Origin: Myxococcota bacterium
GTDB lineage: Bacteria; Myxococcota; JACRCW01
Direction: 5' to 3'
DNA length: 40,655 bases
NCBI GenBank assembly: GCA_040752415.1
Contig: JBFMGU010000078.1
Coordinates: 1 to 40,655 of the forward strand
In this document: in pieces, positions 1,571 to 18,135 of the stretch
How positions within the stretch are numbered: position 1 is the stretch's first letter
Layout: every line of letters starts with the position of its first letter
Notes under the pieces: generated by a model
What the model saw: the letters and a program-made list of their open reading frames with translations, nothing else
What the model was told of the DNA's origin: nothing
Databases searched by the model: none
Position numbers and translations under genes: made by a program

Positions 1571-1705
1571 GGACTTCCTCCTGGTCAAGAGCCGGTGTGC
1601 AGTCTGCACCAGGTGGCGCGTCCTGCCCAGGCAGCTCGCCGGGGGGTGCCCGTTCGCACCTTCCCAAGTGCCTGGATCCCCTGGCCTCCACGCCGAGCCT
1701 CCTCG

Positions 1706-1721
1706 TGGCACGCGCCTCGCT
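1706..1721 (+). promoter_or_regulatory. Candidate sigma-54 (-24/-12) promoter for the nfeD-floT operon: TGGCACG-N4-TCGCT
   Basis: TGGCACGcgccTCGCTT lies about 47 nt upstream of the NfeD ATG. It matches TGGCACG-N4-TTGCW except for T to C at the first T of the -12 box. An EBP gene lies immediately divergent. Confidence 0.35.
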
Positions 1722-1767
1722 TGGAAGCCTGGCAAACGCGCCCACCCGGCGCAGGGAGGTGAGGACC

Positions 1768-2451
1768 ATGGAATCGCTCCTGGCCTGGCACAACCTGATC
1801 TTCCACATCCCCATTGCCACCTCACTGCTGATGCTGCTGGGCCTGGCCTGGGGCGCGGGGCTCGACGACGGCCACGCGGAAGCGGACGCCGACGCTGACG
1901 CTGACCCGGACACGGAGGCCGACACCGACGCCGACGCGGTCCATGCGCTCGACGTGGCGAGCCTGGTGCAGCGCACCCGCTGGCGTGTGGCCAACGCGCT
2001 GGGCGTGGGACGTGTGCCACTGACGCTGGTGGTGATGACGGGCGGGTTGCTCTTTGGGAGCACGGGCCTGCTCGCCAACGCGCTGCTCGCCCCGGTGCTC
2101 GGCGCGCCCGGCGTGTTCGGGCCCATCAGCGTGGCGGTGGCCACGTGCGCCAGCGCGCTGCTCACCGGCCAGGTGGCGCGGCTCGTCGGGAGGGTGATGC
2201 CCACGTCGGAGACCTACCGCGTGACGCGCGGGGATCTCGTCGGGCGCTCCGGGACGCTGGTGCTTCCAGCCGGCCCGTCCAGCGGGTTGGCCCAGGTGCG
2301 GGACCACGAGGGGAACCTGCACCAGATCCGTTGTCGCACGAACGGGGAGGAGCTCCCCAAGGGAGGCGAAGTCCTGGTGATTGATCACGACGTCAAGAGC
2401 AACACCTACGCCGTGGCGGAGCTCCCGCCCGACGTCAGCAGCCGGTCCTGA
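1768..2451 (+). CDS. NfeD-like membrane protein (stomatin/flotillin operon partner, YqiJ/YuaF-like)
   Basis: ATG at 1768 is preceded by GGGAGGTGAGGA. The protein has N-terminal TM helices, an acidic D/E/A/T-rich linker and a C-terminal beta-domain (LVGRSGTLVL, GEVLVIDHD). It sits directly upstream of the flotillin gene. Confidence 0.6.
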   Translation: MESLLAWHNLIFHIPIATSLLMLLGLAWGAGLDDGHAEADADADADPDTEADTDADAVHALDVASLVQRTRWRVANALGVGRVPLTLVVMTGGLLFGSTGLLANALLAPVLGAPGVFGPISVAVATCASALLTGQVARLVGRVMPTSETYRVTRGDLVGRSGTLVLPAGPSSGLAQVRDHEGNLHQIRCRTNGEELPKGGEVLVIDHDVKSNTYAVAELPPDVSSRS

Positions 2452-2487
2452 ACGCAGTCCAACCACGCGTGGAAAGAGGAGGAGAAC

Positions 2488-4284
2488 ATGGGAGCCATCA
2501 CGTTGTTGCTGTTGTTTGCCGTTGCCCTGATTGCCGGGCCCATTGTCGCCGGCGTTGCGGGCATTCCGCTGTCCACCCTGTCCGCCACCATCATGACCCT
2601 CAGCGGTGTGCTGCTGGCCGTCGTCACCGGGATGCTGCTCATTGTCACCAGGCTGTACGTGAAGACCAAGGCCAGTGAAGCGCTGGTGCGCACCGGCATG
2701 GGCGGGATGCGCGTCATCAAGGACGGTGGCGCGCTCATCATCCCCGTGGTGCACCAGATCGTGCGCATCTCCCTGCAGACCCTGCGGCTGGAAGTCAGCC
2801 GGGAAGGCGGCGACGCGCTCATCACCAAGGACAAGCTCCGCGCCGACGTGCGGGCGGAGTTCTTCGTCCGCGTGCAGCCCGACGAGGAATCCATCCGGAG
2901 CGCGGCACGCTCCTTTGGGGATCACATGGGTGACGCGCGGTTCGTGCGCGGGCTGGTGGAAGACAAGCTGGTGAGCGCGCTGCGCACCGTGGCCGCCACC
3001 AAGACGCTGGAGGAGCTCAACACGGAGCGTGACAAGTTCATGGAGCAGGTGACGCACATCGTGGCGCCCGACCTCAGCCACAACGGGCTCACGCTGGAGA
3101 CCGCCACCATCAGCAAGCTGGACCAGACCGACCCGCGCATGCTCCGCGACGACAACATCTTCGACGCGCAGGGCAAGCGCACCATCGCGGAGATCACGCA
3201 GCAGCAGCTCACCGAGCGCAACAAGCTGGAACGCCTGGGTGAGCAGCACCGCAAGCTGCAGGACGTGGAGGCGCGCAAGAAGCTCGTCGAGCTGGAGCGC
3301 ATGCAGGCGGAGACGGAGGCCGCGCAGCGCGCGGAGCTGGCCAAGGTGCAGGCGGCCAAGAGCCGCGAGGCGCAGGAGAAGCAGATCGAGGCGCAGCGCG
3401 CCGTCGAGCTGGCCGCGGTGGCCAAGCAGCAGGCCATCGAGGTGGCGCTGCGGGAGCAGCAGATGGCGGTGGAGGTGGCGGAGCGGAAGAAGCAGGAGGC
3501 GGTGGCCCAGGCGGAAGCCGAGCGGGCCGCCAAGGAGGCTGCGCTGGCCCAGGCGGAAGCCCTGCGTGAGCGCGAGAGGCAGCTGGTGAAGACGGTGGAG
3601 GTGGAGGCCGCCGCGGAGCGCGACAAGCGCAAGCAGATCATCACCGCGGAGGCCGAAGCGGAGAGGAAGTTCGTGGAGGCGCAGCGTTCGGCGGATGCGG
3701 AGGCCTACCGGCTGGAGCGTGAAGCGGCGGCGCACAAGGCCGCGGCGGAAGCCGACGCGGAGGCCATCACCCGTCGCGCGCAGGCGGAGGCGGACGCGGC
3801 ACGGGCCCGCGCGGAAGGTGAGAAGGCCGCGGCGCTGGTTCCCGTCGAGGTGGAGCGGCAGAAGGTGGAGGTGGAGCGCAGGAGGGTGGATGAGGTGCTG
3901 AAGATGGAGCTGGAAGCCCGCGAGCAGCACGGCAAGGCGGCGCAGGAGTTCGAGCTGGCGCAGCTGCGCATCACCAAGGAGGCGGAGGTCCGCATCGAGG
4001 CGGCGCGCGCCACCGTCAACCTGCTCGGGAAGGTGCACGCGCAGGTGTTCGGCACGCCGGAGGACGTCAGCCGCATGACGCAGGCCCTGATGAACGGCAT
4101 GGGCATCTCGCAGACGGTGGACGGATTCTTCGCCGGGGCGAGCCCGCGGACGCTGCAGGTGGCCGACGCGGTGGGCAAGCAGGTGGCGAGCCTGGCCAGC
4201 GCGGTGACCCGCAAGCTGGAGGGTGACGGCGAGAAGCCCGCGCCGGTGCCCGTCAATGGCAGCGGTGAGCCGGCCCGCTGGTAA
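2488..4284 (+). CDS. Flotillin-like SPFH/band-7 protein (YqiK/FloT family) with a long Ala/Glu/Arg-rich coiled-coil C-terminal region
   Basis: Strong RBS GAAAGAGGAGGAG is followed by ATG. There is an N-terminal TM helix, an SPFH core (RVIKDGGALIIPVVHQIVRISLQTLRLEV) and about 250 aa of EA-repeat coiled coil. The gene lies 3' of nfeD. Confidence 0.85.
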   Translation: MGAITLLLLFAVALIAGPIVAGVAGIPLSTLSATIMTLSGVLLAVVTGMLLIVTRLYVKTKASEALVRTGMGGMRVIKDGGALIIPVVHQIVRISLQTLRLEVSREGGDALITKDKLRADVRAEFFVRVQPDEESIRSAARSFGDHMGDARFVRGLVEDKLVSALRTVAATKTLEELNTERDKFMEQVTHIVAPDLSHNGLTLETATISKLDQTDPRMLRDDNIFDAQGKRTIAEITQQQLTERNKLERLGEQHRKLQDVEARKKLVELERMQAETEAAQRAELAKVQAAKSREAQEKQIEAQRAVELAAVAKQQAIEVALREQQMAVEVAERKKQEAVAQAEAERAAKEAALAQAEALRERERQLVKTVEVEAAAERDKRKQIITAEAEAERKFVEAQRSADAEAYRLEREAAAHKAAAEADAEAITRRAQAEADAARARAEGEKAAALVPVEVERQKVEVERRRVDEVLKMELEAREQHGKAAQEFELAQLRITKEAEVRIEAARATVNLLGKVHAQVFGTPEDVSRMTQALMNGMGISQTVDGFFAGASPRTLQVADAVGKQVASLASAVTRKLEGDGEKPAPVPVNGSGEPARW

Positions 4285-4299
4285 CGAGGGTGCAACATG

Positions 4300-4348
4300 G
4301 TCCCCTCCGCATCCACGTCGTCACGGGTGCGGAGGGGACTTCTGTCTT
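4300..4348 (+). terminator. Intrinsic terminator hairpin between convergent genes
   Basis: Perfect 12-bp stem GTCCCCTCCGCA / TGCGGAGGGGAC (4300-4311 and 4327-4338) encloses a 15-nt loop and is followed by TTCTGTCTTG. It sits in the 75-bp gap between the floT stop and the converging LarA-like gene. Confidence 0.55.
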
Positions 4349-4359
4349 GCGACGGAGGG

Positions 4360-5973
4360 CTACACGCTGACGTCAGCCTGCAGGATGGGCGGGAGGTGCA
4401 ACAACGTGATCTGCGGTGAACGCGGTGCGGTGTCCTTCGCCATCTCGATTGCCTCGGCCATGGTCCGCGCGGTCTCGTACCCCAGCAGCCGCGGGATGTA
4501 CGCGTTGTCGGCTCCCACGACGATGACCCGCCCCAGCCACTGACGTCCCGCCTCGCCCCAGTACCACATGAAGAACGGGTGCGCGGGATGGAACGCGTGG
4601 CCTTCGCGGTATAGCTTGAGATAGGCCGGATTCGTGGCGAACGCTTCTTCGTACCTGCGGTGCAGCTCCAGCGCGTCGCGCGTCTCGGGCAGCAGCCGGT
4701 GCACGAACTCGACGTAGGGTGCGTGATAGGGGTCGAAGCGGTCCGTGCACGGGTGCGTGATGATGAGCGTGCCGCCCTTCTTCACCACCGGCTGACCCCG
4801 GTACAGGTTGAAGATGTACCCCTGCGCCATGACCTGCACGAGCAGCGGGTTCAGGAATGCGTTGACGTTGTAGGGCCCCAGAAACGGAATGCCGGCAATG
4901 AGGATGTCCGCCTGTCCGTGCACCGGCACCAGGTACTGGTCGAAGGTCCGTCGGACCGTGTGCGGGTGGACCGCCTCCGTGCTCCCCGCGAACACACCGG
5001 TCATCTCGTACGGCGCCACCAGACTGTGAAACAACGCTCCGCGCGCCCGCTCCGGCATGCGGTCCAACGAGAAGAGCAGGCTCTTGAGCGCGAGGCGCTC
5101 GGTCGCGGTGAGGTCGTCCTCGTTCTTGGCCAGGAAGGCCAGCGACGAATCATAGGCGCGGTTGTTGATCGTCGTCTCGATGGTGAAGACATTGAGGTGC
5201 GTGTTGGCCACGCGGCCCATGCGGTCCACGACGGTGTGCAGCTCGCTCGACGCGGGATCCATGTAGCTGTGGCACTGGCGCATCACGCGCGGGTTGTGGT
5301 GCGGCTTGAGGCTCTCGTAGCCACACAGGCCCACCGCCACGGACTTGTGGCCGCCGTCCATCGCCACCAGGTTGAGGTTCGCGTAGATGATGAGGTCGCT
5401 CTCCACCGCCTTGCGGTTGAGCACCACGCGCTCGCCGAGCTCTGTCTCCCCCACGAGCTTCATCGCGTCGGGCGCCTCGGGGTCGTGGTTGTGGAGGCGG
5501 TCCGGCCAGTAGGCGTTGAAGATCCTGTCGCCCACCAGCCCGCGGATCTCCGGCTCGGTGAGCTTCCGGTGAAGACACGTGGCAAGGATGATTTCCACGT
5601 CGTCCACGCCGTGCTGCGCCAGCACCTCGAGGACAATCGTGATGATGCGCTCGCGCACGTCGGGTCCCCGCATGGCCGGCAGCGGCATGGAGTTGTCATC
5701 CAGCGCAATGACCACCTTCATCCCCGGGCGCAGCAGCGCGTGGAGCGGGTCGCTGCCGTGGGGGTGGTTGAGCGCGTACCGGATGGCGGCGTCGGGATCC
5801 TTCAGTCCCGCCAGCGGCGGCTTCGGATAGACCACGCGCGTGCCCGGCGGCAGGTGCACCTCGACGAAGCGCTCACCGGAGTACAGCACACGCGGCGCGC
5901 TGTGACGGTCCAGGGTCACCACGCACCCGTGAAGCGGATCCTGTGTTGAACCGCGCGCCGACATGGTGGGCAA
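4360..5973 (-). CDS. LarA-like (lactate racemase / DUF2088 family) protein, last gene of the operon
   Basis: 537-aa ORF with motifs typical of the LarA N-terminal domain (MKVVIALDDNSMP, IILATCLHRKLT). Its TTG 5973 / ATG 5964 start abuts the TAG stop (5974-5976) of the upstream CDP-alcohol transferase. Family assignment rests on motif recall only. Confidence 0.45.
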   Translation of the reverse strand: MPTMSARGSTQDPLHGCVVTLDRHSAPRVLYSGERFVEVHLPPGTRVVYPKPPLAGLKDPDAAIRYALNHPHGSDPLHALLRPGMKVVIALDDNSMPLPAMRGPDVRERIITIVLEVLAQHGVDDVEIILATCLHRKLTEPEIRGLVGDRIFNAYWPDRLHNHDPEAPDAMKLVGETELGERVVLNRKAVESDLIIYANLNLVAMDGGHKSVAVGLCGYESLKPHHNPRVMRQCHSYMDPASSELHTVVDRMGRVANTHLNVFTIETTINNRAYDSSLAFLAKNEDDLTATERLALKSLLFSLDRMPERARGALFHSLVAPYEMTGVFAGSTEAVHPHTVRRTFDQYLVPVHGQADILIAGIPFLGPYNVNAFLNPLLVQVMAQGYIFNLYRGQPVVKKGGTLIITHPCTDRFDPYHAPYVEFVHRLLPETRDALELHRRYEEAFATNPAYLKLYREGHAFHPAHPFFMWYWGEAGRQWLGRVIVVGADNAYIPRLLGYETARTMAEAIEMAKDTAPRSPQITLLHLPPILQADVSV

Positions 5974-7134
5974 CTACTCGAGGTGGTCCACGGGCGTGCG
6001 CGCCTTGGCGGCCCGCTCCGGGGCGACGGGGATGTTCGCCACCGCAGCAGGATCCCGTCGTCGCTGCTCCGGCGTCAGCACCAGCAGCCCCAGGCCCAGC
6101 GTCCCGACGGCAAACCGCGTGCTGTGCATCAGCTGCCACCCCAGCTTGAGTGCCACCATCACCAACACGCCCGCGGCCACCGTGGTCTGCACCTCGTACC
6201 CACCCGGCAGGTGCAGCGTGACGTTCCATCCGACGAGAAGCGCGGTCAGTTGCAGATCCCACCCGCGGTAACGCGTGCCGAAGAGGATGTTGCGCAGGAT
6301 GTCCCAGTTGTGCTTCACCGCCACCAGGCACAGCACCACCGGCCCAAGCAAAGGCGCGCCCGGCACTCCACCCATGCTCTGCGCTTGCAGGTGCCAGGCG
6401 CATACCAGCGCGACGTTCACGCCAATACCCAGCACGTTCCGGCGCTCCCTGCCCACCTTGACCAACGCCTCGACGCCAACCGCCGCATAACCGAGTGCCG
6501 CAACCACCGTGAGCACGTCCGCGGCGCCCACACTGCCCACCCGCGCACGCCAAAGCGCGCCACCCGCCACCACGGTGGCCAGGTGCACCACGATGGCGAG
6601 GAAGTTTCCCTCCATGGCACCGAACGGCGGCAGCACCAGGCTGTTGGTCCGACGACGATCCAGGTTGTTGGACCACCACCCCAGCGAGAACGCGACTGCC
6701 AGCACCATGCACTCATTGGCCGTGGCCCCGTACGCCGCGAAGCCGCCCAGCGGAATGCTAAATCCCGCGAAGGCATCCAGACCGTGGTCATAGAAGTCGC
6801 CCAGCGGATTTGACACGCCAATGCGTCGCGCCTGCAGGCCGTCCATGCTGTCGGTGATGCAGTACAGGAAGAGCAGCAGCGCCGAGCACAACGCCACCAG
6901 GCGAAGCGTCACGTCGGAAATGGCGGCGTTGGTGATGGCGGCGAGCAGGAGAAAAACGAACACCGCCGCGGCGTGCCCGGTGAAGGTGAGGACGTTGGGA
7001 TTGAGTTCGCGCGGCGTGCGTGAGAGGAGCGGGCGGTTGATGAGGCGGTCGAACGGCGCCTGCACGAGGGAGCGGTCCTCGCACGAGAAGCGGTAGCGGT
7101 GGATGCGCTCGGGAACCTCGAAGTCAACCGGCAT
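5974..7134 (-). CDS. CDP-alcohol phosphatidyltransferase family protein, unusually long (386 aa, ~10 TM)
   Basis: Signature D-x2-DG-x2-AR-x8-G-x3-D-x3-D is present as DSMDGLQARRIGVSNPLGDFYDHGLD. The protein is polytopic. RBS GGAGAAG precedes ATG 7134. Its start overlaps the upstream gene by 11 nt. Confidence 0.75.
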   Translation of the reverse strand: MPVDFEVPERIHRYRFSCEDRSLVQAPFDRLINRPLLSRTPRELNPNVLTFTGHAAAVFVFLLLAAITNAAISDVTLRLVALCSALLLFLYCITDSMDGLQARRIGVSNPLGDFYDHGLDAFAGFSIPLGGFAAYGATANECMVLAVAFSLGWWSNNLDRRRTNSLVLPPFGAMEGNFLAIVVHLATVVAGGALWRARVGSVGAADVLTVVAALGYAAVGVEALVKVGRERRNVLGIGVNVALVCAWHLQAQSMGGVPGAPLLGPVVLCLVAVKHNWDILRNILFGTRYRGWDLQLTALLVGWNVTLHLPGGYEVQTTVAAGVLVMVALKLGWQLMHSTRFAVGTLGLGLLVLTPEQRRRDPAAVANIPVAPERAAKARTPVDHLE

Positions 7135-8572
7135 GGGCGGTGGCTTCTCCGTCGAGGAGTTGGTTCAGGGTACGGAACCCGTGACGCTGCGGCGCTCCCG
7201 ACTCCGCCACGTCTGGGCCGGAGAGTCGACCATCCACGAGGTACCGCTTGCCCATGCGCTCCTGCGCCCAGGTGAGGACCTTGTCAATCATCGGCGTGCG
7301 CACGTCGGCCAGCTCGGCGATCCCGCGCAGCACCACCAGTCCAAAGGGAATGTCCTCAAGAAAGAAGCGGCTGCCCCAGTTGGGGACGTACCCGCCATCA
7401 ACCTTCAGCATGGGCGTGCGGATGCCCGCGTAGGCGCGATTGCTGGCCAGGATGCGCTGCAGCGAGGAGTGGTCCGCGATGTCCGAGCTGTACGCGGCCC
7501 GAATGGCCAGGTCCACGGGCAGCACCGCGGTGAGGTCGAAGTCCGGCCGCGCCGCTTCAATGGCCGCGCGCATGGCCAGGATCTCCTCTCCCATGGCCGC
7601 CACCACCGCGGCGCCCTCCGACGTGGCGGACTCGTAGAAGAGCGGCGGCTCGGGCAGCGGCGTTGCGTCCCAGTTGGCAAAGAGGTCGAACATCAGGCCC
7701 GGGTGGAGGAGCTGGTTGCCGGGATTGAAGATGATCTGCAGGAAGTTGCCGATGTCGATGACGGGAAAGCCCACCAGCAGCGCCATGAGGTCGCTGGCCA
7801 GGGCTGCGTTCTCGCGGTCGGCGGTGGCCAGGCCGGTGATGGTCTTGGTGCCCAGCACGCGCACGGACCGACCGGGCTCGTCGAGCTTGCACATCCACGG
7901 AATGCTCGCCAGACCAAAGACCGTGGCGCGCTTTCCCGCCGCCTCCAGCGCGCGACGTGCCGCCCAGTGGACACCGCCTGGGCCGGGGATGGAACCCACC
8001 AGCGCACCGTCGTCGAGGTGTGGGACGATGCGCGCGAGCACCGCGGGCTCACAGAAAGACGGGAGGCACATCAGGACCAGGCGCGAGCCCGGGATGACGC
8101 GCGCGGGATCGGCGGTGACCACGTGGGGCCGACCCACGACCTCGCCGTCACGCGAGCGCACCCGCACACCGTCCTGCATGGCCCGGCGGAGCATGTCCGC
8201 GCGCTCCTCCGACGAGGTCAGCAGGTTCACCCGCACCTCGGGATGGTTGCCGAGCCGCCCCAGGAACACGTGGCCCAGGTTCCCTGCGCCGCACACCGTC
8301 ACCTGCAGCGGACCATCACCACCGCCAAGCCGCGCGCGCACCGACGACACCGCGGGGTCATGACGGACCACCGCCTCAATGGGGACCTGCAGCGCCATGC
8401 ACAGCGCGTAGATGGTCAACGGCTCGGGGATGAGGCGCGGGTTGTCATGCAGCGCTTGCAGCTTTTCCGTCGTCAGACCGGTCTGCTCGGCGGCTTCCGC
8501 CACGGTCAGGCCGCGCGCGGCGAGCAACGCACGGACATCATTGCGGGACACCTGGCTCAACAGGGACGTCAT
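7124..8572 (-). CDS. Fusion protein: N-terminal XRE-type HTH plus NAD(P)-binding opine-dehydrogenase-like (ODH/GpsA-fold) domain
   Basis: ATG 8572 follows GGGAGGTG. Residues 1-70 form an HTH (GLTVAEAAEQTGLTTEKLQALHDNP). A Rossmann motif VTVCGAGNLGHVFLGRLG resembles the octopine/nopaline dehydrogenase N-terminus. Confidence 0.6.
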   Translation of the reverse strand: MTSLLSQVSRNDVRALLAARGLTVAEAAEQTGLTTEKLQALHDNPRLIPEPLTIYALCMALQVPIEAVVRHDPAVSSVRARLGGGDGPLQVTVCGAGNLGHVFLGRLGNHPEVRVNLLTSSEERADMLRRAMQDGVRVRSRDGEVVGRPHVVTADPARVIPGSRLVLMCLPSFCEPAVLARIVPHLDDGALVGSIPGPGGVHWAARRALEAAGKRATVFGLASIPWMCKLDEPGRSVRVLGTKTITGLATADRENAALASDLMALLVGFPVIDIGNFLQIIFNPGNQLLHPGLMFDLFANWDATPLPEPPLFYESATSEGAAVVAAMGEEILAMRAAIEAARPDFDLTAVLPVDLAIRAAYSSDIADHSSLQRILASNRAYAGIRTPMLKVDGGYVPNWGSRFFLEDIPFGLVVLRGIAELADVRTPMIDKVLTWAQERMGKRYLVDGRLSGPDVAESGAPQRHGFRTLNQLLDGEATAHAG

Positions 8573-8598
8573 GCGAACACCTCCCGCCACAACGCCTA

Positions 8599-9774
8599 TC
8601 ATGCCGTTGGCGCGGGCGAACAGGTGGCGGGACGATTCCTAACCAGCACGATCGTCGCCGTGAGCGCTACGAGAATCACCGCTCCCAGCGCGGCGGCACT
8701 GCCCTGGCGCTCGAGCAGGAATCCGCCCGCGAGCGGTCCCACCACGCGCCCCAGCGTTCCCGCCACCTGCTGCCAACCCAGGATGCGTCCGCGCTCTCCG
8801 GCGGGGGTCAGTGCCGCCAGCGTCGCGGTTGCCAGCGGCGTGATCAGACCCATCCCCGCCGCCATGACGACGAGCGCGGCAAGCAGCGTTGCGGCGTGCA
8901 TCCCCGCCATCAGTCCCGCCCCGCCCACCGCCATCATCGCCGCGCCAGCGATCATCACGCTTCGCGGAAGATACCGTCGGGTGAGCGGCGCAATGAGCGC
9001 GCCCTGAACCGCCAGCAGGACGGCGCCGAAGACCGCGAACCCCACGCCCGCTGCGTCGGCACCCCAGCCGCGTCGCTGCTGGACCACCAGGGGCATCACC
9101 GCCTGCAGCAGCGACGTGCACAAATAGGCCGCCAGGATGACGACGAGGATGTGCACGCTACCCCGCTGCGGAATCATGAACGCCGCTGGTGGAGCACCAT
9201 CACGCGCGGGGCGCGTCTCAGGGAGGATGACGAGTGCAGCAAGCGCGGCCAGCAACGCCACGAGTCCAGCCGCCGCCGCGGGTACCCAGATGCCCCGCTC
9301 CGAGAGCCCCGCACCGAGCAGCGGCCCCGTCACCATGCCCACGCCCATTGCGGCGCCAAAGCGGCCCAGCCGCGCCGCGCGTTCGTGCTCGCTGCTGGTG
9401 TCGACGACGATGAGCTGCAGCGTTGCCAGGTTCCCGGCGGTTGCTCCGGCGAGAACCCGCGCCACCACCATGCCCACCACGGAGGACGACGCCATGGCCA
9501 CCCCCAGCAGCGCCATGGACACTGCGTTGCCGAGGAGACTGAGCAGCACCACCGGCCTGCGACCCACGCGGTCCGCGAGCATTCCGAGACACGGCGCCAT
9601 GATGAGCTGGGCCACGGAGTAGCTGGCGAGCGTGACCCCGGCGTCCTCCGCGGTTCCGCCGACGGCGGTGACGGCGAGCGGAAGGATGGGTGCCACGATG
9701 CCGAACCCCACCAGGTCCAGGAATGCGGCGCAGTACAGCAGGACGTGCACGTGCGATGGGTTTAGCTTCGGCAC
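8599..9774 (-). CDS. MFS transporter (12-TM major facilitator)
   Basis: 391 aa and hydrophobic throughout, with the MFS loop motif GMLADRVGRRP. First gene of a co-directional four-gene cluster. Confidence 0.8.
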   Translation of the reverse strand: MPKLNPSHVHVLLYCAAFLDLVGFGIVAPILPLAVTAVGGTAEDAGVTLASYSVAQLIMAPCLGMLADRVGRRPVVLLSLLGNAVSMALLGVAMASSSVVGMVVARVLAGATAGNLATLQLIVVDTSSEHERAARLGRFGAAMGVGMVTGPLLGAGLSERGIWVPAAAAGLVALLAALAALVILPETRPARDGAPPAAFMIPQRGSVHILVVILAAYLCTSLLQAVMPLVVQQRRGWGADAAGVGFAVFGAVLLAVQGALIAPLTRRYLPRSVMIAGAAMMAVGGAGLMAGMHAATLLAALVVMAAGMGLITPLATATLAALTPAGERGRILGWQQVAGTLGRVVGPLAGGFLLERQGSAAALGAVILVALTATIVLVRNRPATCSPAPTA

Positions 9775-9895
9775 CCGCCCAGGCTATCCCGGAAGGCCGC
9801 GCTTGTGGATGACCGACCAATGTCCTAGTGACGACGCGACGGCCGGAAGCGCCAACCGGGGGGAGCGCGACGCGACGGACGGCCACGGAGCCTGC

Positions 9896-10768
9896 ATGAC
9901 CGAGACCTCCTCCACGCACGCCGCCCACGTCGAGCGTGTTGCCACCTACTACGACGACATGACGCGGCTGGCGAAGTTCATCGGCTGGTTCGACCAGAGC
10001 GACATGATCCACTTCGGGTACTGGGACGCGTCGGTGCGCACGCACCAGGAGTCGCTGGTGGCCATGAGCGACCAGTTGCTGCAGGGCGTCGGCTTCTCAC
10101 GCGGGATGCACGTCCTGGACGCGGGGTGCGGCATTGGCGGCATGGCGCTGAAGCTGGCGCGACAGCACGGCGTTCAGGTCACCGGCGTGAACATCTGCGA
10201 GTCCCAGCTGGAGCAGGCGCGGACGCTTGCCGCGCGCGAGGGACTGCAGGACCGGGTGTCCTTCCAGAATGCGGACTACAACCACCTGCCCTTTCCCGAC
10301 GCCACCTTTGACGTGGTCACCATGGTGGAGAGCCTGATCTACACGCCGGACAAGGCCCCACCGCTGCGCGAGATGTGTCGCGTGCTCAAGCCCGGTGGCC
10401 GCCTGCTGATTGCGGATGGGTTCCTGACGCGGGATCCGCTCGACGACGCCGCGGCCGCCGAGGTGAAGCGCTCCGGGGAATGCTGGGGCGGCGCGGTGTG
10501 GATCTCCAAGGACGCCACGGACCGCACCCTGCGTGAGATCGGCTTCAGCGAGGTGAACATCCGCGATGTCACCCACCACGTCGAGAAGTCGCTCAAGCGG
10601 CTGCTCTGGACGTGTCGCGTGCTGGTGCCGTTGGCGCGTCCCTTCGTCGAGGTGGGCATCATCCCGCGGAACTACTTTCCCATCGGGATGGCCGGGATCC
10701 ACCAGTGGGAGATCCATCGGAAGGGCTACTGGTGCTACGCGCTCGTGCAGGCGCGGAAGGCCGGATAA
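9896..10768 (+). CDS. Class I SAM-dependent methyltransferase (Methyltransf_11-like; phospholipid N-methyltransferase or CFA-synthase-like)
   Basis: YYDDMTRLAKFIGW...HFGYW pre-motif, SAM-binding VLDAGCGIGG, and LKPGGRLLI. ATG at 9896; an alternative ATG lies at 9809. Divergent from the MFS operon. Confidence 0.75.
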   Translation: MTETSSTHAAHVERVATYYDDMTRLAKFIGWFDQSDMIHFGYWDASVRTHQESLVAMSDQLLQGVGFSRGMHVLDAGCGIGGMALKLARQHGVQVTGVNICESQLEQARTLAAREGLQDRVSFQNADYNHLPFPDATFDVVTMVESLIYTPDKAPPLREMCRVLKPGGRLLIADGFLTRDPLDDAAAAEVKRSGECWGGAVWISKDATDRTLREIGFSEVNIRDVTHHVEKSLKRLLWTCRVLVPLARPFVEVGIIPRNYFPIGMAGIHQWEIHRKGYWCYALVQARKAG

Positions 10769-11131
10769 GGCGGCTCGCGCCGTCGGTGTTGGGGCACGGG
10801 ATCCTTCCCGCGCTGACTGCATCCCCTCCGGTACGCTCCACGGACAAACGCCAACCGTTGTCCGGCAGGCGGGCCCCAGTCACCTGATTCACAGCGTGTC
10901 CTCGGCACGTGCACCAGGGGCGGCGCGCGGAGCCGCGTTGGCTCCTCGGTCGTCTGATGGGGACGGACCAGCCGGGGCTGTCGGCGCGCGGGGCCTGCGA
11001 CTTCGTCCGTGCTTCGCTATCTCATCGCGCACGGTGTCGCGGTTCCTCGGAAAGTCCACTGATGGGACTCCCAGGGCGCGCTGGACACCGTGCTCATGAC
11101 GCGCGTGACCATCCCAGGGGGGGAGGGAACC

Positions 11132-11728
11132 ATGAAACTCGGTGAACAACTCGTGTTGGAGCGGCGCATCACGCCAACCCAGTTGCAGTCGGTGCTGGCC
11201 TACCAGAAGCGCTGGTCCTGCAAGTTTGGAGAGGCGCTCCTGGCGTCAAACCTCTTGAGCAGCAGGGACGTCCTGTCGCTCGTGGCGCGCAAGCTCGGCG
11301 TACCTTATGTGGAGCTGGATGTGCTGAGGATCCCAGAGCACACGGTGGGAATGCTGCCCTCCCAGCTCCTCGCCCGTCACGCGGTGATACCGCTGGGCAC
11401 CCGGGGCTCCACCGCGCGGGCGCCAATGATGGTGGCGATGAGCGAGCCCCAGAACCTTCGGGCCGTGGACGACATCTCGTTTGCCGCGGGAAGGCCCATC
11501 ATGCCCGTCCTTGCCATGCCGCAGGACATCCAAACCGCACTGCGTCGCCATGGCATCATCCTCGGCCGACCCTTCGACCCGCTGGAGCTCCCGGAAGACG
11601 CGGAAGACCTGGTGATCACGCGGGGCGTCGAGGTCGAGTTCCTGCAGGTGCAATCCGCGACCGTTCCCGCCCCCCAAACTCGCGACCCCCTGGACTGGAC
11701 CGTGGCGATTGCGCAGGGTCAGGCCTGA
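11132..11728 (+). CDS. Stand-alone T2SS-E N-terminal (GspE_N / MshEN-type, putative c-di-GMP-binding) domain protein
   Basis: RBS GGGAGGG then ATG 11132. Contains LGEQLVLERRITPTQLQSVLAYQK...LGEALLASNLLSSRDVLSLVARKLGVPYVELD, typical of GspE N-terminal or MshEN domains. Confidence 0.6.
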   Translation: MKLGEQLVLERRITPTQLQSVLAYQKRWSCKFGEALLASNLLSSRDVLSLVARKLGVPYVELDVLRIPEHTVGMLPSQLLARHAVIPLGTRGSTARAPMMVAMSEPQNLRAVDDISFAAGRPIMPVLAMPQDIQTALRRHGIILGRPFDPLELPEDAEDLVITRGVEVEFLQVQSATVPAPQTRDPLDWTVAIAQGQA

Positions 11729-12027: not shown

Positions 12028-12842
12028 CTATTTCGCGAACACCTTCCGCGCGCTCTCCTGGTGTGCCGCCTTCTTCGCGGCGCACAGCCGCACGTTCTCG
12101 ACGGTCAACGCCAGCTCCCGCTCCAATCCGGGCGTGCTCTGCTTGCGCGGCGCGAAATAGGTTTCGAGCTCCCTGGCCTTCTCCTCGGAGCACCAACCCC
12201 CGAAGAGGCCGGGCAGCCGCGCCGCGCCAAAGGTCTGCGGCAGCCGCGCCAGCGACGCGTCGACGTGCGACTGCACCCAGGCCCAGGTCGCGTCGGTGGT
12301 CCGGAAGTCGTGCGCCTGGCGACCTGGATGCGACCGTCGGAGAGCGTGGTTGGCGGCTGCTCGGGCGCATTGGCGAAGACGCGGTTGCCGGCGGGAGTGG
12401 TGATGGAGAGGGTGAAGGGCGTCTTGAAGCCGGGCTCGTCGAAACATGGAAACGCATCCCGCGCGGTGATCGCCTCGAACTGTGTGAACACGTACCAGTT
12501 GTCCCCGAATTTCACGCGGTAGACCGACTCGAGCGATTCGTTGAACTTCGTCCTCCATGCGATCTCCAGGTCCACCTCGCCTGGCCCCACCGCGCTGCCC
12601 GCCTCCAGGCGCGCCATTCCGTCGTCATCAGCTGCGTGGGATCGAGGTCGAGCTGGACGGTGTACGCCAAGGGTCGCACGCCGGGCGGGAGCCGGAACCC
12701 GCGTTTCGAGCCGGCGCTGCTCCCGTCGGCTTCGGCGCCGTGGTATCCGCATCTCTCGGAAACCTGCGCAGGCGAGAACCCAGGAGCGCTCCGCGATGAC
12801 GACGAGAGCCAACACGGAACTCATCCTCCACAACGCTCCCAC
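12028..12842 (-). pseudogene. Remnant of an M1-family aminopeptidase N gene (N-terminal and C-terminal fragments only; catalytic HEXXH core deleted)
   Basis: ORF 12105-12842 encodes an M1 N-domain (FEAITARDAFPCFDEPGFKTPFTLSITTPAGN). ORF 12028-12558 in another frame encodes an M1 C-terminal domain (LPGLFGGWCSEEKARELETYF). The frames join near 12300-12330. Total length is under 0.8 kb against about 2.6 kb for an intact gene. Confidence 0.6.
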
Positions 12843-13617
12843 CCGGCCCGGTCACGAGGACCGTTGGCCGTTCCTCAAGACGCTGGGCTACACGCTGGAC
12901 ATCTCGGTGCGTTGCCTGTGGTCCACCTACCGGGGACGCGGCGGCGTCAAGCGTTGCGACGAGCTGCTGGACTGGTGGTGGCGGAAGATCTTCACGTCCG
13001 GGGAGGCGTCCCTGACGGTGGAGGGACGCGAGCACTTCATCCGCGGCGGCGCGCACGTGGTCATGTCCAACCACACCTCGCTCCTGGACATCCCGGCCAT
13101 CATTGGCGCGGTGCCTGGCTCCGTGCGCATGGTGACCAAGCAGGAGCTGATGCGCGTTCCGTTGTGGGGTCGCGCGCTGCTGGCGTCGGGCTTCATTCCC
13201 ATTGACCGCCGCAACCGGGAGCGCGCCATCCAGCAGTTGGAGAAGGCCAAGGAGACGCTGGCCACCGGCGTGAATGTGTGGATTGCGCCGGAGGGAACGC
13301 GGAGCCGGGATGGTCGGCTGGCCCCGTTCAAGAAGGGCGGGTTCCACACCGCCGTCGCGCTGGGCGCGACCATCATTCCGACGTGGATTGATGGCGCCTC
13401 CGACATCATCCCGCCTGACCAGCTCGTGGCGCGCCACGGGCGGATGGTCACGGTGCGTTTTGGGGCGCCCATTCCGACGGTGAGCCGCTCCCGGGAAGAC
13501 CTCGAGCCGCTGATGCAGGAAGTGCGTGACGCCATCCTGGCGTTGTCACGCGGTGCCGCGGTGGCGACGGAGGCCGCGCAAGCGGAGCCCGCACCGACGG
13601 TTGCACGCGGAGACTGA
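12796..13617 (+). CDS. plsC: 1-acyl-sn-glycerol-3-phosphate acyltransferase (PlsC/LPLAT family)
   Basis: Motifs NHTSLLD (HX4D) and PEGTRS. ATG 12796 follows CAGGAG. The Arg-rich ORF extension upstream is ignored. Confidence 0.8.
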   Translation: MTTRANTELILHNAPTRPGHEDRWPFLKTLGYTLDISVRCLWSTYRGRGGVKRCDELLDWWWRKIFTSGEASLTVEGREHFIRGGAHVVMSNHTSLLDIPAIIGAVPGSVRMVTKQELMRVPLWGRALLASGFIPIDRRNRERAIQQLEKAKETLATGVNVWIAPEGTRSRDGRLAPFKKGGFHTAVALGATIIPTWIDGASDIIPPDQLVARHGRMVTVRFGAPIPTVSRSREDLEPLMQEVRDAILALSRGAAVATEAAQAEPAPTVARGD

Positions 13618-14948: not shown

Positions 14949-15149
14949 AGCCAGTAGCGGCCCCCTCCCGCGACCCCACAGCGCATGCGCACCACCTCGG
15001 CGGCTTGACGGGCGCCCCAGTCCTTTTCCCGTTGTGCTCCGACCCCTGGAGGGATGCACTGGGCCCGACCAGGAGCGCGCTCGCCCTTTGCTGCGACGCA
15101 GCTCTCGCGCCCCTTCGACGATGCACTCGACGTCCAGTTCGGCCATGGC

Positions 15150-17989: not shown

Positions 17990-18135
17990 GACGAGCTCGG
18001 GGGCGCGCAAGAGCCAGCTGCAACCCGCGCCCGCCCCGCCCCTCCAAACGTCGCGCCCCCGGATTGACCGCGGCGACTGCACAGGGTCAGGCCAGAGCCA
18101 GCGCGTGACGCCGTGGCTCCCAACGACAATTCACG
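17990..18135. repeat. Repeat copy B: decayed partial duplicate of the MshEN gene 3' end plus downstream hairpin; overlaps the stop of the DUF1501 gene
   Basis: Aligns with 11640-11775. Upstream ORF 17723-18067 ends ...QEPAATRARPAPPNVAPPD, a degenerate match to the MshEN C-terminus ...QVQSATVPAPQTRDPLD. Confidence 0.5.

What the first reader, a model, noticed from the sequence alone, without database searches (positions are those of the whole stretch)
4360..9774. Unusual four-gene operon: MFS transporter, HTH-fused opine-dehydrogenase-like enzyme, long CDP-alcohol phosphatidyltransferase and LarA-like protein
Four co-directional genes have overlapping or abutting boundaries (8599/8572, 7134/7124, 5974/5973). 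They combine a lipid head-group transferase of atypical length (386 aa, ~10 TM) with two soluble enzymes not normally linked to phospholipid synthesis: an NAD(P) opine-DH-fold protein and a LarA-family, possibly Ni-pincer-dependent, racemase/epimerase-like protein. A transporter and a divergent SAM methyltransferase complete the cluster. This resembles a pathway that makes and attaches a modified polyol or hydroxy-acid head group to CDP-diacylglycerol, and such a combination is not a described system to my knowledge.
Basis: inference. Interest (0 to 1): 0.65.

Follow-up and report, generated by a model that had tools for sequence, protein, structure and literature searches.

The report
Ether-lipid head-group operon with opine dehydrogenase
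A myxobacterial operon joins a eukaryote-type phospholipid head-group transferase, an animal-type opine dehydrogenase, a transporter and the unexplained nickel-enzyme-like gene of the bacterial ether-lipid pathway, and this combination recurs in unrelated bacteria, which points to an undescribed membrane-lipid head group.

Summary
The four minus-strand genes are real and tightly coupled. The domain calls hold, but the proposed mechanism does not.

- **Transferase (5974-7134):** it is not a CDP-diacylglycerol enzyme. Its family profile matches human CEPT1 and Xenopus CHPT1 over the full length (E~1e-42), against ~1e-3 for prokaryotic CDP-alcohol transferases. It should therefore move a phospho-head group from a CDP-alcohol onto diacyl- or alkylacyl-glycerol.
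- **LarA-like protein (4360-5973):** it passes NCBIfam LarAH14/15/16 and keeps the cofactor-binding Asp, Lys and His, but it has Asn in place of the second catalytic His. Homologs 71-74% identical occupy the elbC slot of HAD-LarAH-ElbD-epimerase ether-lipid operons.
- **Opine-dehydrogenase homolog (7124-8602):** E=3e-72 to scallop octopine dehydrogenase, catalytic His/Arg/Asp invariant, with an XRE-like N-terminal domain.
- **Recurrence:** the dehydrogenase sits next to a CPT-like gene and an MFS transporter in four independent loci, once as a CPT::MFS fusion, and near one in a fifth. The neighbours are AGPS, FAR, HAD, PF10520-desaturase or aminoethylphosphonate genes.
- **Limits:** LarAH adjacency is unique to this window. 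No cytidylyltransferase is present here.

Best reading: an ether-lipid-linked, Kennedy-type head-group module. The dehydrogenase may make an N-carboxyalkyl (opine-type) amino head group. This is an undescribed variant of a known kind.

The parts
8599..9774 (-). First gene: 12-TM major-facilitator transporter of the DHA1 (NorA/Tet-like) type.
   Evidence: Pfam MFS_1 7e-48. Best solved relative is NorA, 1.5e-23. 50% identical to the MFS gene at the head of locus L001.
7124..8602 (-). Opine-dehydrogenase homolog with an N-terminal XRE-like domain. The likely true start is ATG 8572.
   Evidence: E=3e-72 to Pecten octopine dehydrogenase over residues 100-488. H300, R412 and D417 are invariant in 37 family members and align to Pecten H212, R324 and D329. 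AF2 model pLDDT 94. Foldseek top hits are all opine dehydrogenases: 3iqd 2.6e-37, 1bg6 3e-21, metallophore opine dehydrogenases 1e-13. GpsA reaches only 4e-8.
8303..8572 (-). N-terminal domain (about 90 aa) of the dehydrogenase: a helical XRE/Cro-C1-like helix-turn-helix fold.
   Evidence: 32 bacterial homologs carry 83-134 residues before the Rossmann fold; the short and eukaryotic ones carry 1-27. HTH_26 matches 6 of 37 members (best 1.1e-5), plus HTH_31, HTH_3 and HTH_19; the window protein itself gets only HTH_25 at 0.07. In the full model this region forms four helices with pLDDT 87-98. The isolated-domain model matches only XRE-type folds, weakly (E 0.08-0.5, TM 0.5-0.6).
5974..7134 (-). 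CDP-alcohol phosphotransferase of the choline/ethanolamine-phosphotransferase (CPT/EPT, CEPT1-like) class.
   Evidence: Complete motif D95-x2-D98-G99-x2-A102-R103-x8-G112-x3-D116-x3-D120, invariant or nearly so in the family. The family profile hits human CEPT1 at 3.6e-42, Xenopus CHPT1 at 3.5e-41 and yeast Cpt1 at 6e-36, the two vertebrate enzymes over the full length; AF2299 and PIPS reach only about 1e-3. The family is rare: 22 representatives at E<1e-30 among 1.84 billion proteins.
4360..5973 (-). ElbC-type LarA homolog (LarAH14/15/16 family) with a single catalytic His. The likely start is ATG 5964.
   Evidence: NF052592 783.7 bits, above the cut-off of 740. Closest solved structures are the single-His LarAs 9q2u and 9q3j. 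D93, H135 and K210 align to LarASp D73, H115 and K195. N201 aligns to N185, the position that replaces the second catalytic His. H235 is the probable Ni ligand. Homologs 71-74% identical lie between a HAD gene and an ElbD-like gene.
9899..10768 (+). Divergently transcribed class I SAM methyltransferase. The longest ORF starts at 9632; the likely start is ATG 9899.
   Evidence: Methyltransf_11/25/31 at about 1e-25. Best solved relative is MitM, an N-methyltransferase, at 1.8e-34; phosphoethanolamine N-methyltransferases reach 4e-19. Membership in the module is inferred only from position and from methyltransferases recurring beside the dehydrogenase in other loci.
9775..9898 (.). Divergent intergenic region between the MFS gene and the methyltransferase gene; presumed promoter region.
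   Evidence: Sequence read. No sigma-70 consensus match was found there, and no inverted repeat.
4300..4339 (.). GC-rich inverted repeat between the convergent ends of the operon and the flotillin-like gene; a likely terminator hairpin.
   Evidence: 15-nt arms, 93% complementary, 10-nt loop.

Best explanation
This is a membrane-lipid operon tied to bacterial ether-lipid biosynthesis. It completes a glycerolipid by the Kennedy route found in eukaryotes.

Shown:
- The 386-aa membrane protein belongs to the CEPT1/CHPT1 class and has an intact catalytic motif.
- The dehydrogenase belongs to the opine-dehydrogenase clade, keeps its His-Arg-Asp catalytic residues and has an XRE-like N-terminal domain.
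- The LarA homolog belongs to the family that fills the elbC slot of myxobacterial elb ether-lipid operons.
- The dehydrogenase, a CPT-like transferase and an MFS transporter travel together in several lineages, among ether-lipid genes.

Inferred:
- The transferase moves a phospho-head group from a CDP- or CMP-activated 2-aminoethyl-phosphate or 2-aminoethyl-phosphonate compound onto 1-alkyl-2-acyl- or diacyl-glycerol.
- The dehydrogenase reductively condenses the primary amine of that head group (free, nucleotide-activated or already lipid-bound) with pyruvate or another 2-oxo acid, using NAD(P)H. This is the reaction tauropine dehydrogenase performs on taurine. The product is an N-(1-carboxyalkyl) opine-type head group, which the divergent methyltransferase may N-methylate.
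- The MFS protein flips or exports the product, or imports a precursor.
- The ElbC-type nickel-pincer enzyme acts on the lipid backbone rather than the head group, probably by a transient hydride-shuttle oxidation. Its reaction is unknown.
For: Transferase class:
- Family profile versus solved structures: CEPT1 3.6e-42, CHPT1 3.5e-41, prokaryotic types about 1e-3.
- The catalytic motif is intact.
- Single-sequence hits go to plant and animal CEPT/EPT.

Ether-lipid link of the transferase family:
- Methylobacter loci L010, L011, L076 and L077 carry PKS-with-reductase, AGPS-like FAD oxidase, SDR and then the CPT-like gene.
- L150 carries acyltransferase, AGPS, FAR-like, HAD and NTP-transferase genes beside CPT-like, MFS and the dehydrogenase.
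- L152 carries the dehydrogenase followed by a FAAL-ACP-LLM-MT-R megasynthase, and divergently a CPT::MFS fusion followed by HAD.
- L001, the closest relative, carries MFS, dehydrogenase, PF10520 lipid desaturase, methyltransferase, Rce1-like and CPT-like genes.
- In Vitiosangium (L009) the CPT-like gene lies three genes upstream of, and co-directional with, an APP1 phosphatidate phosphatase gene.

ElbC link:
- HAD, LarAH, ElbD-like (reductase/AMP-binding/ACP/acyltransferase) and epimerase genes in L146-L149 match the published elbB-elbE order, in which elbC is 'of unknown function' (PMC9131029).

Head-group role of the dehydrogenase:
- Sequence and fold place it among opine dehydrogenases, far above GpsA or ketopantoate reductase.
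- The catalytic residues are invariant.
- In L005 it ends a complete 2-aminoethylphosphonate cluster: CDP-OH transferase, PEP mutase, decarboxylase, NTP-transferase, aminotransferase, methyltransferase, dehydrogenase.
- In L151 it follows an NTP-transferase 66% identical to the L005 one.
- Relatives include a cnidarian protein annotated tauropine dehydrogenase-like.
- A lipid with an N-carboxymethyl-ethanolamine head group, PHEG, exists in brown algae (PMC10532667).

Operon coupling.
Against: - The window has no kinase or cytidylyltransferase to make the CDP-head group, and no FAR, AGPS or ElbD gene.
- The LarAH-transferase adjacency is unique to this window. L001, the closest relative, has a different gene downstream.
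- The dehydrogenase family also occurs without any CPT-like gene (L003, L007, L153).
- Close CPT-like genes also occur without the dehydrogenase within 10 kb (Vitiosangium L009). In Methylobacter the two are about 27 kb apart.
- The MFS proteins of the different loci are not orthologous, and neither are the methyltransferases.
- Gln118 of Pecten octopine dehydrogenase aligns to Pro in the window protein. From memory, that residue contacts pyruvate, so the 2-oxo-acid site may differ.
- No substrate of any of the four proteins has been tested, and lipids with an N-(1-carboxyethyl) head group have not been reported from bacteria to my knowledge.
Confidence: 0.5

Rival explanations
1. Plain Kennedy-type ether-lipid synthesis without head-group chemistry. 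The dehydrogenase works on the glycerol backbone, for example as an acyl- or alkyl-dihydroxyacetone-phosphate reductase or a glycerol-3-phosphate-dehydrogenase-like enzyme. The product is ordinary plasmanyl-ethanolamine or plasmanyl-choline.
For: Locus L150 has FAR-like, acyltransferase, AGPS, HAD and two CDP-alcohol transferase genes but no SDR for the alkyl-DHAP reduction step, and the dehydrogenase is adjacent. The fold superfamily includes GpsA and ketopantoate reductases. Twenty-four of 37 family members weakly match NAD_Gly3P_dh_N.
Against: Sequence and fold similarity to opine dehydrogenases is far stronger: 3e-72 and 2.6e-37, against 4e-8 for GpsA. The opine-type His-Arg-Asp set is invariant. 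L152 and the Methylobacter contig (L076/L151) carry an SDR as well as the dehydrogenase, adjacent in L152 and about 26 kb away in Methylobacter. In L005 the gene closes an aminophosphonate head-group cluster.
Confidence: 0.17
2. The operon makes an exported amphiphile rather than a bulk membrane lipid. The CPT-like enzyme phosphorylates a fatty alcohol or lyso-ether lipid with an amino head group, the dehydrogenase tailors it, and the DHA1-type MFS pump secretes it as a signal, surfactant or weapon.
For: The MFS protein is closest to drug:H+ efflux pumps (NorA 1.5e-23; Tet and CntE-like models). A transporter recurs with the transferase and is once fused to it. Partner genes in other loci are PKS/NRPS-like megasynthases with terminal reductase domains that would yield fatty aldehydes or alcohols. 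RND efflux genes follow the dehydrogenase in L005 and L151.
Against: Full-length similarity to CEPT1 includes the C-terminal transmembrane helices; that these helices form the diacylglycerol chamber in CEPT1 is from memory. HAD and APP1 phosphatases and acyltransferases in partner loci fit the making of a diradylglycerol acceptor. There is no evidence on localisation.
Confidence: 0.13
3. One reading: the transferase attaches a modified polyol or hydroxy acid, made by the dehydrogenase and epimerised by the LarA-like enzyme, to CDP-diacylglycerol.
For: Weak NCBIfam matches to archaetidylinositol-phosphate, PGP and PIP synthases (1e-6 to 1e-3, far below their cut-offs). LarA enzymes act on 2-hydroxy acids (PMC7583248).
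Against: The profile comparison favours CEPT1/CHPT1 by about 39 orders of magnitude over CDP-DAG-type enzymes. LarAH lacks the second catalytic His needed for racemisation, and its conserved context is the ElbD ether-lipid operon, not head-group genes. Opine dehydrogenases make secondary amines, not polyols.
Confidence: 0.05
4. Chance neighbourhood: a mobile MFS-dehydrogenase-transferase cassette landed upstream of a conserved, functionally unrelated LarA-family gene, so the four genes do not form one pathway.
For: LarAH is widespread and highly conserved: more than 120 relatives at 67% identity or above and 3548 at E<1e-20. The transferase has only six hits in the same database. The adjacency is seen once.
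Against: Both partners are independently tied to ether-lipid genes, so a common theme is unlikely to arise by chance. The stop and start codons abut or lie 9 nt apart, and no terminator-like site lies between them.
Confidence: 0.12

Closest known systems
Eukaryotic choline/ethanolamine phosphotransferases (CEPT1, CHPT1, yeast Cpt1) and the Treponema denticola CDP-choline pathway
   Same: Full-length profile match and the same D-x2-DG-x2-AR-x8-G-x3-D-x3-D motif. More distant homologs (25-31% identity) are common in Spirochaete and Treponema genomes. In bacteria this route has been described as uncommon and is known from T. denticola (PMC8590670).
   Different: About 30% identity or less to any characterised enzyme. 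No LicCA-type kinase or cytidylyltransferase is nearby. The gene is embedded with an opine dehydrogenase, an MFS transporter and an ElbC homolog. The donor and acceptor are untested.
Myxococcus xanthus ether-lipid genes (elbA-E, the MXAN_1676 AGPS operon, CarF/PEDS1)
   Same: The LarA homolog belongs to the family found between HAD (elbB-like) and ElbD-like genes in Myxococcota MAGs. This matches the published gene order, in which elbC is of unknown function (PMC9131029). Partner loci carry AGPS, FAR, acyltransferase, HAD and a PF10520 desaturase.
   Different: In the window the elbC-type gene is detached from elbB, elbD and elbE and coupled to a head-group transferase. The described operons contain no opine dehydrogenase, CPT-like enzyme or MFS transporter. 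The identity of M. xanthus ElbC with this family is inferred from synteny and was not checked on its sequence.
Opine dehydrogenases of marine invertebrates (octopine, tauropine, strombine and alanopine dehydrogenases)
   Same: 33-37% identity over the whole catalytic part, the same fold, and the His-Arg-Asp residues.
   Different: The bacterial clade carries an extra XRE-like domain of about 90 aa. It sits in lipid or phosphonate gene clusters instead of serving anaerobic glycolysis. A residue that I recall contacting pyruvate, Pecten Gln118, aligns to Pro.
Single-histidine LarA homologs (LarA from Streptococcus plurextorum and Blautia wexlerae; PMC12611868)
   Same: These are the best solved relatives (8e-35). 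The window protein shares the catalytic His, the Lys that links the nickel-pincer cofactor, the ribose-binding Asp, and Asn at the position of the second catalytic His.
   Different: Similarity is limited to two stretches. The window protein belongs to a different LarAH group (14/15/16, not 17). The genomic context is lipid genes rather than glycolysis or sugar genes. Lys76 aligns to Met.
Staphylopine-type metallophore operons (cnt: opine dehydrogenase CntM with MFS exporter CntE)
   Same: An opine dehydrogenase is paired with an MFS transporter. There is a weak MFS match to the CntE model (4e-8).
   Different: No CntL or CntK genes are present. The dehydrogenase is of the octopine type, not the Staph_opine_DH type (1 of 37 family members matches PF10100). 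The transferase and lipid genes have no counterpart in cnt operons.
Phosphatidyl-hydroxyethylglycine (PHEG) of brown algae
   Same: PHEG is a natural phospholipid whose head group is N-carboxymethyl-ethanolamine. This is the kind of product the proposed reaction would give (PMC10532667; the structure is from memory).
   Different: It is a eukaryotic diacyl lipid, and I know of no described biosynthesis. No sequence link to this operon was tested.

Membership tests
CDP-alcohol phosphotransferase superfamily (PF01066) | Signature D-x2-D-G-x2-A-R-x8-G-x3-D-x3-D in the second and third transmembrane helices. | tested here: met
   DSMDGLQARRIGVSNPLGDFYDHGLD. D95, G99, A102, R103, G112 and D120 are invariant and D98 and D116 at least 90% conserved in 21 family members. 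Pfam score 23.3 against a cut-off of 22.
Choline/ethanolamine phosphotransferase class (CEPT1/CHPT1/Cpt1) | Full-length homology to the roughly 380-400-aa, 10-TM enzymes, including the N-terminal HxYxS...S region and the C-terminal helices. | tested here: met
   Profile positions 24-370 align to CEPT1 residues 22-378 of 380, E=3.6e-42. CHPT1 gives 3.5e-41. AF2299 and PIPS reach only about 1e-3.
Choline/ethanolamine phosphotransferase class (CEPT1/CHPT1/Cpt1) | Activity: CDP-choline or CDP-ethanolamine plus diradylglycerol gives a phospholipid plus CMP. | not testable with these tools
   Needs an enzyme assay. No cytidylyltransferase gene is present in the 40-kb window.
LarA superfamily, LarAH14/15/16 (NF052592) | Score above NCBI's curated cut-off for the equivalog model. 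| tested here: met
   783.7 bits against 740, covering residues 17-535.
LarA-type racemase/epimerase | Two catalytic histidines (His108 and His174 of L. plantarum LarA) acting alternately as acid and base. | tested here: not met
   H135 is present. The second position is N201 (YANLN-LVAMDGGHK), aligned to Asn185 of LarASp.
LarA superfamily | Residues that bind the nickel-pincer cofactor: the ribose Asp, the Lys forming the covalent link, and the His ligand of Ni. | tested here: met
   D93 and K210 are invariant and align to D73 and K195 of LarASp. H235 is at least 90% conserved and lies one position from the aligned Ni-ligand His221. The Ni-ligand assignment is approximate.
LarA superfamily | Cofactor synthesis genes larB, larC and larE present in the genome. 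| tested here: inconclusive
   None occur in the 40-kb window or in the elbC-type loci examined. The rest of the genome is not available.
Myxobacterial elb ether-lipid operon | The gene lies in the elbC position, between HAD (elbB) and the multidomain ElbD, followed by an epimerase (elbE). | tested here: not met
   This holds for homologs 71-74% identical (L146-L149). The window copy is flanked by the CPT-like gene and a convergent flotillin-like gene instead. It is therefore a family member outside the canonical operon.
Opine dehydrogenase (octopine dehydrogenase type, PF02317) | Rossmann domain plus helical Octopine_DH domain, with the catalytic His, Arg and Asp. | tested here: met
   PF02317 at 6e-29. 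GAGNLGH nucleotide-binding motif at 105-111. H300, R412 and D417 are invariant. Foldseek hit 3iqd at E 2.6e-37, target-normalised TM 0.83.
Opine dehydrogenase (octopine dehydrogenase type, PF02317) | NAD(P)H-dependent reductive condensation of an amine with a 2-oxo acid. | not testable with these tools
   The substrates are unknown. Pecten Gln118 aligns to Pro in the window protein.
XRE/Cro-C1 helix-turn-helix domain | A recognisable HTH domain at the N-terminus. | tested here: inconclusive
   At family level: HTH_26 in 6 of 37 members (best 1.1e-5), plus HTH_31, HTH_3 and HTH_19. For the window protein itself: HTH_25 at E=0.07 only. The fold hits are exclusively XRE-like but weak (E 0.08-0.5). 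DNA binding was not tested; the same fold occurs as a non-regulatory domain in HEPD.
Major facilitator superfamily, DHA1 | Twelve-TM MFS_1 architecture. | tested here: met
   MFS_1 163.7 bits. NorA match over residues 12-378.

The most novel reading that the evidence does not exclude
Some bacteria (Myxococcota, methanotrophs and others) make ether phospholipids by a eukaryote-like Kennedy route. Their head group would be a new opine-type one: N-(1-carboxyalkyl), possibly N-methylated, aminoethyl-phosphate or aminoethyl-phosphonate, built by an animal-type opine dehydrogenase. In the same pathway, the long-unexplained ElbC would be a nickel-pincer enzyme that performs a redox-neutral step on the glycerol backbone, which would explain ether-bond formation without AGPS.
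Probability: 0.22. Interest if true: 0.88.

Novelty: new variant of a known kind. Interest (0 to 1): 0.72.

Why it matters
If correct, the finding bears on four questions.

1. **Ether-bond formation in the Elb pathway.** How the dominant Elb pathway of myxobacteria makes ether bonds is open, and elbC is listed as 'unknown function' (PMC9131029). Recognising it as a single-histidine LarA homolog gives a testable hypothesis: nickel dependence, a requirement for larBCE, and hydride-shuttle chemistry.
2. **Substrates of single-His LarAs.** It would give the single-histidine LarA enzymes, whose substrates are unknown (PMC12611868), a concrete physiological context.
3. **Origin of the eukaryotic pathway.** Bacterial CEPT/EPT-like enzymes beside AGPS, FAR and PEDS1-family genes extend the set of eukaryote-like plasmalogen steps found in bacteria. 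This is relevant to the proposal that eukaryotes acquired this pathway from myxobacteria (PMC13012113), which does not discuss the head-group transferase.
4. **A new role for opine dehydrogenases.** An animal-type opine dehydrogenase recruited to lipid and phosphonate clusters predicts a new head-group class. It might also explain lipids such as PHEG.

Tried and rejected
- **Exact-sequence look-up.** The window transferase and P0001 are not on record in the contig collection.
- **Search for the whole cluster elsewhere.** tblastn with all window proteins against about 150 fetched loci found LarAH only in its own elb-type loci. The window methyltransferase found only generic matches.
- **Promoter and terminator scan of 4000-10200.** It gave one internal promoter-like site and four weak terminator-like sites, close to the numbers expected from shuffles, so it was not used.
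- **Genes upstream of the Vitiosangium CPT-like gene.** They have no informative Pfam matches.
- **Cofactor genes.** The window contains no larB, larC or larE gene, cytidylyltransferase, choline or ethanolamine kinase, FAR, AGPS or ElbD gene.
- **Transmembrane count.** A crude hydropathy count for the transferase gave about 7 peaks and was judged unreliable. I relied on the full-length alignment to 10-TM CEPT1 instead.
- **Metallophore idea.** An opine metallophore (cnt-like) operon was considered and rejected: no CntL or CntK genes, and the dehydrogenase is of a different subtype.
- **Literature.** Lorenzen et al. 2014 (the original elb paper) is not held. 'MXAN_1529' occurs in no held paper. 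The identity of M. xanthus ElbC with this family therefore rests on synteny.
- **L153.** The unknown 385-aa membrane protein next to the dehydrogenase is not CPT-like.

Full report
**Source and observation**

The window is a 40,655-bp contig of a Myxococcota MAG; a protein 100% identical to the transferase is recorded from an NCBI contig of exactly that length. The four minus-strand ORFs at 8599-9774, 7124-8602, 5974-7134 and 4360-5973 exist as described. They have the codon-position GC pattern of genuine genes in this 69% GC DNA.

The junctions are tight:
- The MFS stop is at 8599-8601. The next start is ATG 8602 (ATGA overlap) or, more probably, ATG 8572 behind a GGGAGG ribosome-binding site.
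- The transferase ATG at 7134 overlaps the dehydrogenase stop by 11 nt.
- The LarA-like ORF begins at TTG 5973 or ATG 5964, right after the transferase stop.

A 15-nt inverted repeat (4300-4339) lies between the end of the operon and the convergent flotillin-like gene. A methyltransferase gene is transcribed divergently from a 124-bp spacer.

**The transferase**

Pfam only just detects CDP-OH_P_transf (23.3 bits), but the catalytic signature is complete and conserved. The protein has very few close relatives: 6 hits in the 5.8-billion-sequence search, the weak ones being plant and animal choline/ethanolamine phosphotransferases. An exhaustive scan of 1.84 billion representatives found 22 at E<1e-30.

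A profile of the 21 closest sequences matches human CEPT1 (3.6e-42), Xenopus CHPT1 (3.5e-41) and yeast Cpt1 (6e-36), the two vertebrate enzymes over essentially the whole length. The prokaryotic enzymes AF2299 and PIP synthase reach only about 1e-3. The 386-aa length is therefore normal for this class. In bacteria this Kennedy-type step has been described as uncommon and is known from Treponema denticola (PMC8590670). More distant homologs (25-31%) are indeed frequent in Spirochaete MAGs.

**The LarA homolog**

It scores 783.7 bits on NCBIfam NF052592 (LarAH14/15/16), above the cut-off of 740. The closest solved structures are the two single-histidine LarAs of PMC12611868.

Mapping that paper's residues onto the alignment:
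- D93 is the ribose-binding Asp.
- H135 is the retained catalytic His.
- K210 is the cofactor-linking Lys.
- H235 is the probable Ni ligand.
- N201 occupies the place of the second catalytic His.

A classical two-base racemase mechanism is thus unlikely. Desguin et al. found a group-14 member inactive on all acids tested. [quoted passage not shown]

Unlike the other genes, this one is widespread and highly conserved: more than 120 relatives at 67% identity or above. Two of them (74% and 71% identical, Myxococcota MAGs) lie in the same operon. The order is HAD hydrolase, LarAH, a roughly 1560-aa reductase/AMP-binding/ACP/acyltransferase protein, and an NAD-epimerase. [quoted passage not shown]

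I could not check the M. xanthus sequence itself, so ElbC = LarAH is an inference from synteny. No held paper connects elbC with LarA or DUF2088.

**The dehydrogenase**

Residues 100-488 match scallop octopine dehydrogenase at 3e-72. H300, R412 and D417 align with its H212, R324 and D329 and are invariant in 37 relatives, including eukaryotic ones. That these three are the catalytic residues of the scallop enzyme is from memory.

The AlphaFold model is confident (pLDDT 94). Its best structural matches are exclusively opine dehydrogenases. Ketopantoate reductases and GpsA follow far behind.

About 60 bacterial homologs of roughly 470-500 aa cover 94-98% of the query. The 32 aligned here carry 83-134 residues before the Rossmann fold, and the eukaryotic and short forms lack this extension. 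Pfam sees Cro/C1-type HTH models in a minority of members (HTH_26 1.1e-5; the window protein only HTH_25 at 0.07). The domain folds into a helical bundle whose only structural neighbours are XRE-type domains, with weak scores. Among those neighbours are the non-regulatory N-terminal domains of the phosphonate enzymes HEPD and PhpD. 'HTH-fused' is therefore right as a fold statement, but DNA binding is unproven.

**Gene neighbourhoods elsewhere**

Dehydrogenase next to, or near, a CPT-like gene:
- **L001** (metagenome) is the closest relative: MFS 50%, dehydrogenase 68%, transferase 59% identical. The gene order is MFS, dehydrogenase, PF10520 lipid desaturase (the CarF/PEDS1 family), methyltransferase, Rce1-like, CPT-like. 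The gene that follows is not LarA-like.
- **L150** has CPT-like (39%) followed by MFS, convergent with the dehydrogenase (48%). A divergent operon carries a small CDP-OH transferase, acyltransferase, AGPS-like, FAR-like, HAD and NTP-transferase genes.
- **L152** has the dehydrogenase followed by a FAAL-ACP-luciferase-like-methyltransferase-reductase megasynthase. Divergently it has a CPT-like::MFS fusion protein followed by HAD, and an SDR gene.
- **One Methylobacter-like 218-kb contig** carries DUF5765, NTP-transferase and dehydrogenase genes about 9 kb from an operon of acyltransferase, HAD, a 4534-aa PKS, AGPS, SDR and CPT-like genes.

Dehydrogenase with a small CDP-OH transferase:
- **L005** is a related contig with a complete 2-aminoethylphosphonate cluster: small CDP-OH transferase, PEP mutase/NTP-transferase, decarboxylase, NTP-transferase, aminotransferase and methyltransferase. 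It ends with the dehydrogenase.

CPT-like gene without the dehydrogenase:
- **Vitiosangium (L009)** has a CPT-like gene (53%) lying three genes upstream of, and co-directional with, an APP1 phosphatidate phosphatase gene, with no dehydrogenase within 10 kb.

Dehydrogenase without a CPT-like gene:
- **L003** also carries the PF10520 desaturase, methyltransferase and Rce1-like genes, plus acyl-activating genes.
- **L007** has the gene beside an HpcH aldolase.
- **L153** has it beside PKS genes.

Distant CPT-like genes, at 31% identity or below, never have the dehydrogenase nearby. The conserved core is therefore dehydrogenase + CPT-like + a transporter, set among ether-lipid or aminophosphonate genes. 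The transporters are not orthologous between loci, and neither are the methyltransferases. LarAH adjacency is unique to the window.

**Mechanism**

Shown:
- the family memberships;
- the catalytic motifs;
- the operon-like arrangement;
- the recurrence of the triad in lipid contexts.

Inferred:
- The CPT-like enzyme finishes an (alkyl)acyl-glycerolipid using a nucleotide-activated 2-aminoethyl-phosphate or 2-aminoethyl-phosphonate head group.
- The dehydrogenase converts the primary amine of that head group into an N-(1-carboxyalkyl) secondary amine. Taurine, the tauropine dehydrogenase substrate, is isosteric with phosphoethanolamine and aminoethylphosphonate (established chemistry).
- The methyltransferase may N-methylate the product. 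Its nearest solved relative is the N-methyltransferase MitM, and phosphoethanolamine N-methyltransferases come further down the list.
- The MFS protein moves the product or a precursor.
- ElbC acts on the backbone.

A natural lipid with an N-carboxymethyl-ethanolamine head group (PHEG) exists in brown algae, so the product class is chemically plausible.

Main weaknesses:
- No cytidylyltransferase, FAR, AGPS or ElbD gene is present in this window, and only 40 kb of the genome is known.
- The link between the dehydrogenase and the transferase is incomplete.
- Nothing has been tested biochemically.

I put 0.5 on the overall model and about 0.3 on the specific opine-type head group.

**Rivals**
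- A backbone-reductase role for the dehydrogenase is possible, since L150 lacks an SDR. It is disfavoured by the strength of the opine-dehydrogenase signal, by co-occurrence with SDRs, and by the phosphonate-cluster context.
- An exported amphiphile fits the efflux-type MFS protein and the megasynthases with reductase ends.
- A chance neighbourhood for LarAH cannot be excluded, but both neighbours independently point to ether lipids.

**Novelty and score**

All four protein families are known, and ether-lipid operons and the Kennedy pathway are known kinds of system. I found three points undescribed in the held literature:
- the conserved pairing of an animal-type, XRE-fused opine dehydrogenase with a CEPT1-like transferase and a transporter inside bacterial ether-lipid and phosphonolipid loci;
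- bacterial CEPT/EPT-like genes next to AGPS, FAR and PEDS1-family genes;
- the elbC slot being filled by a single-histidine nickel-pincer-type enzyme.

I rate this a new variant of a known kind, with interest 0.72. It would surprise lipid and LarA specialists, and it makes the open ElbC and ether-bond question directly testable.

Noticed in passing
window 25902-29460 (+): Three overlapping genes: a 562-aa acyltransferase, a GpsA glycerol-3-phosphate dehydrogenase, and a weak APP1-like phosphatidate phosphatase (22.8 bits, below cut-off). They could supply diacylglycerol for the CPT-like enzyme. With a PlsC-like acyltransferase (12541-13617) and a GDPD phosphodiesterase (13959-15188, minus strand), the contig is rich in glycerolipid genes.
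   Followed up: partly
window 1597-4284 (+): A YqiJ/NfeD-like membrane protein is followed by a 598-aa SPFH/flotillin-like protein with a long Ala/Glu/Lys-rich coiled coil. This gene pair converges on the operon.
   Followed up: no
window 11090-11728 (+): A stand-alone 212-aa protein made only of an MshEN-type domain (a c-di-GMP-binding motif model matches at 2.7e-9), without the ATPase part of PilB or MshE.
   Followed up: no
window 18131-22405 (-): A Planctomycete-type pair: a 990-aa PSCyt1/PSCyt2/PSD protein followed by a DUF1501 protein. This pair is unusual in a Myxococcota contig.
   Followed up: no
window 8303-8572 (-); PDB 6b9r, 4yar, 3g7d: The XRE-like N-terminal domain of the dehydrogenase shows 27-32% identity over about 62-67 residues to the N-terminal domains of the phosphonate enzymes HEPD and PhpD. 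The fold scores are weak (E 0.16-0.5). It may be a structural or substrate domain rather than a DNA-binding one.
   Followed up: partly
L012 10001-13033; proteins P0090, P0095, P0096: Proteins of about 1000 aa fuse a CPT-like domain to a sulfatase/alkaline-phosphatase-type domain (the fold of LtaS and EptA head-group transferases). This suggests that in Pirellulales and others the lipid head group is passed on to an extracytoplasmic acceptor.
   Followed up: partly
L152 3-4820 (-): A megasynthase of at least 1606 aa with the order FAAL-type AMP-binding, ACP, luciferase-like monooxygenase, methyltransferase, terminal reductase. It lies directly downstream of the dehydrogenase gene.
   Followed up: partly
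L005 3735-11428: A complete 2-aminoethylphosphonate/phosphonolipid cluster (CDP-OH transferase, PEP mutase-NTP-transferase fusion, phosphonopyruvate decarboxylase, NTP-transferase, aminotransferase, methyltransferase) ends with the HTH-fused opine dehydrogenase. This predicts an N-modified aminophosphonate head group in Methylobacter-like bacteria.
   Followed up: partly
L001 7872-10011; L003 11463-14088: A PF10520 (CarF/PEDS1-family) desaturase, a methyltransferase (64% identical between the two loci) and an Rce1/CPBP-like membrane protein form a conserved trio downstream of the dehydrogenase. The role of the CPBP-like protein is unexplained.
   Followed up: partly
proteins P0065-P0073: The bacterial HTH-fused dehydrogenases are 35-42% identical to short forms (about 390-420 aa). 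At least two of these are eukaryotic: an EukProt transcript and a cnidarian protein annotated tauropine dehydrogenase-like. The direction of any transfer between bacteria and eukaryotes was not analysed.
   Followed up: no
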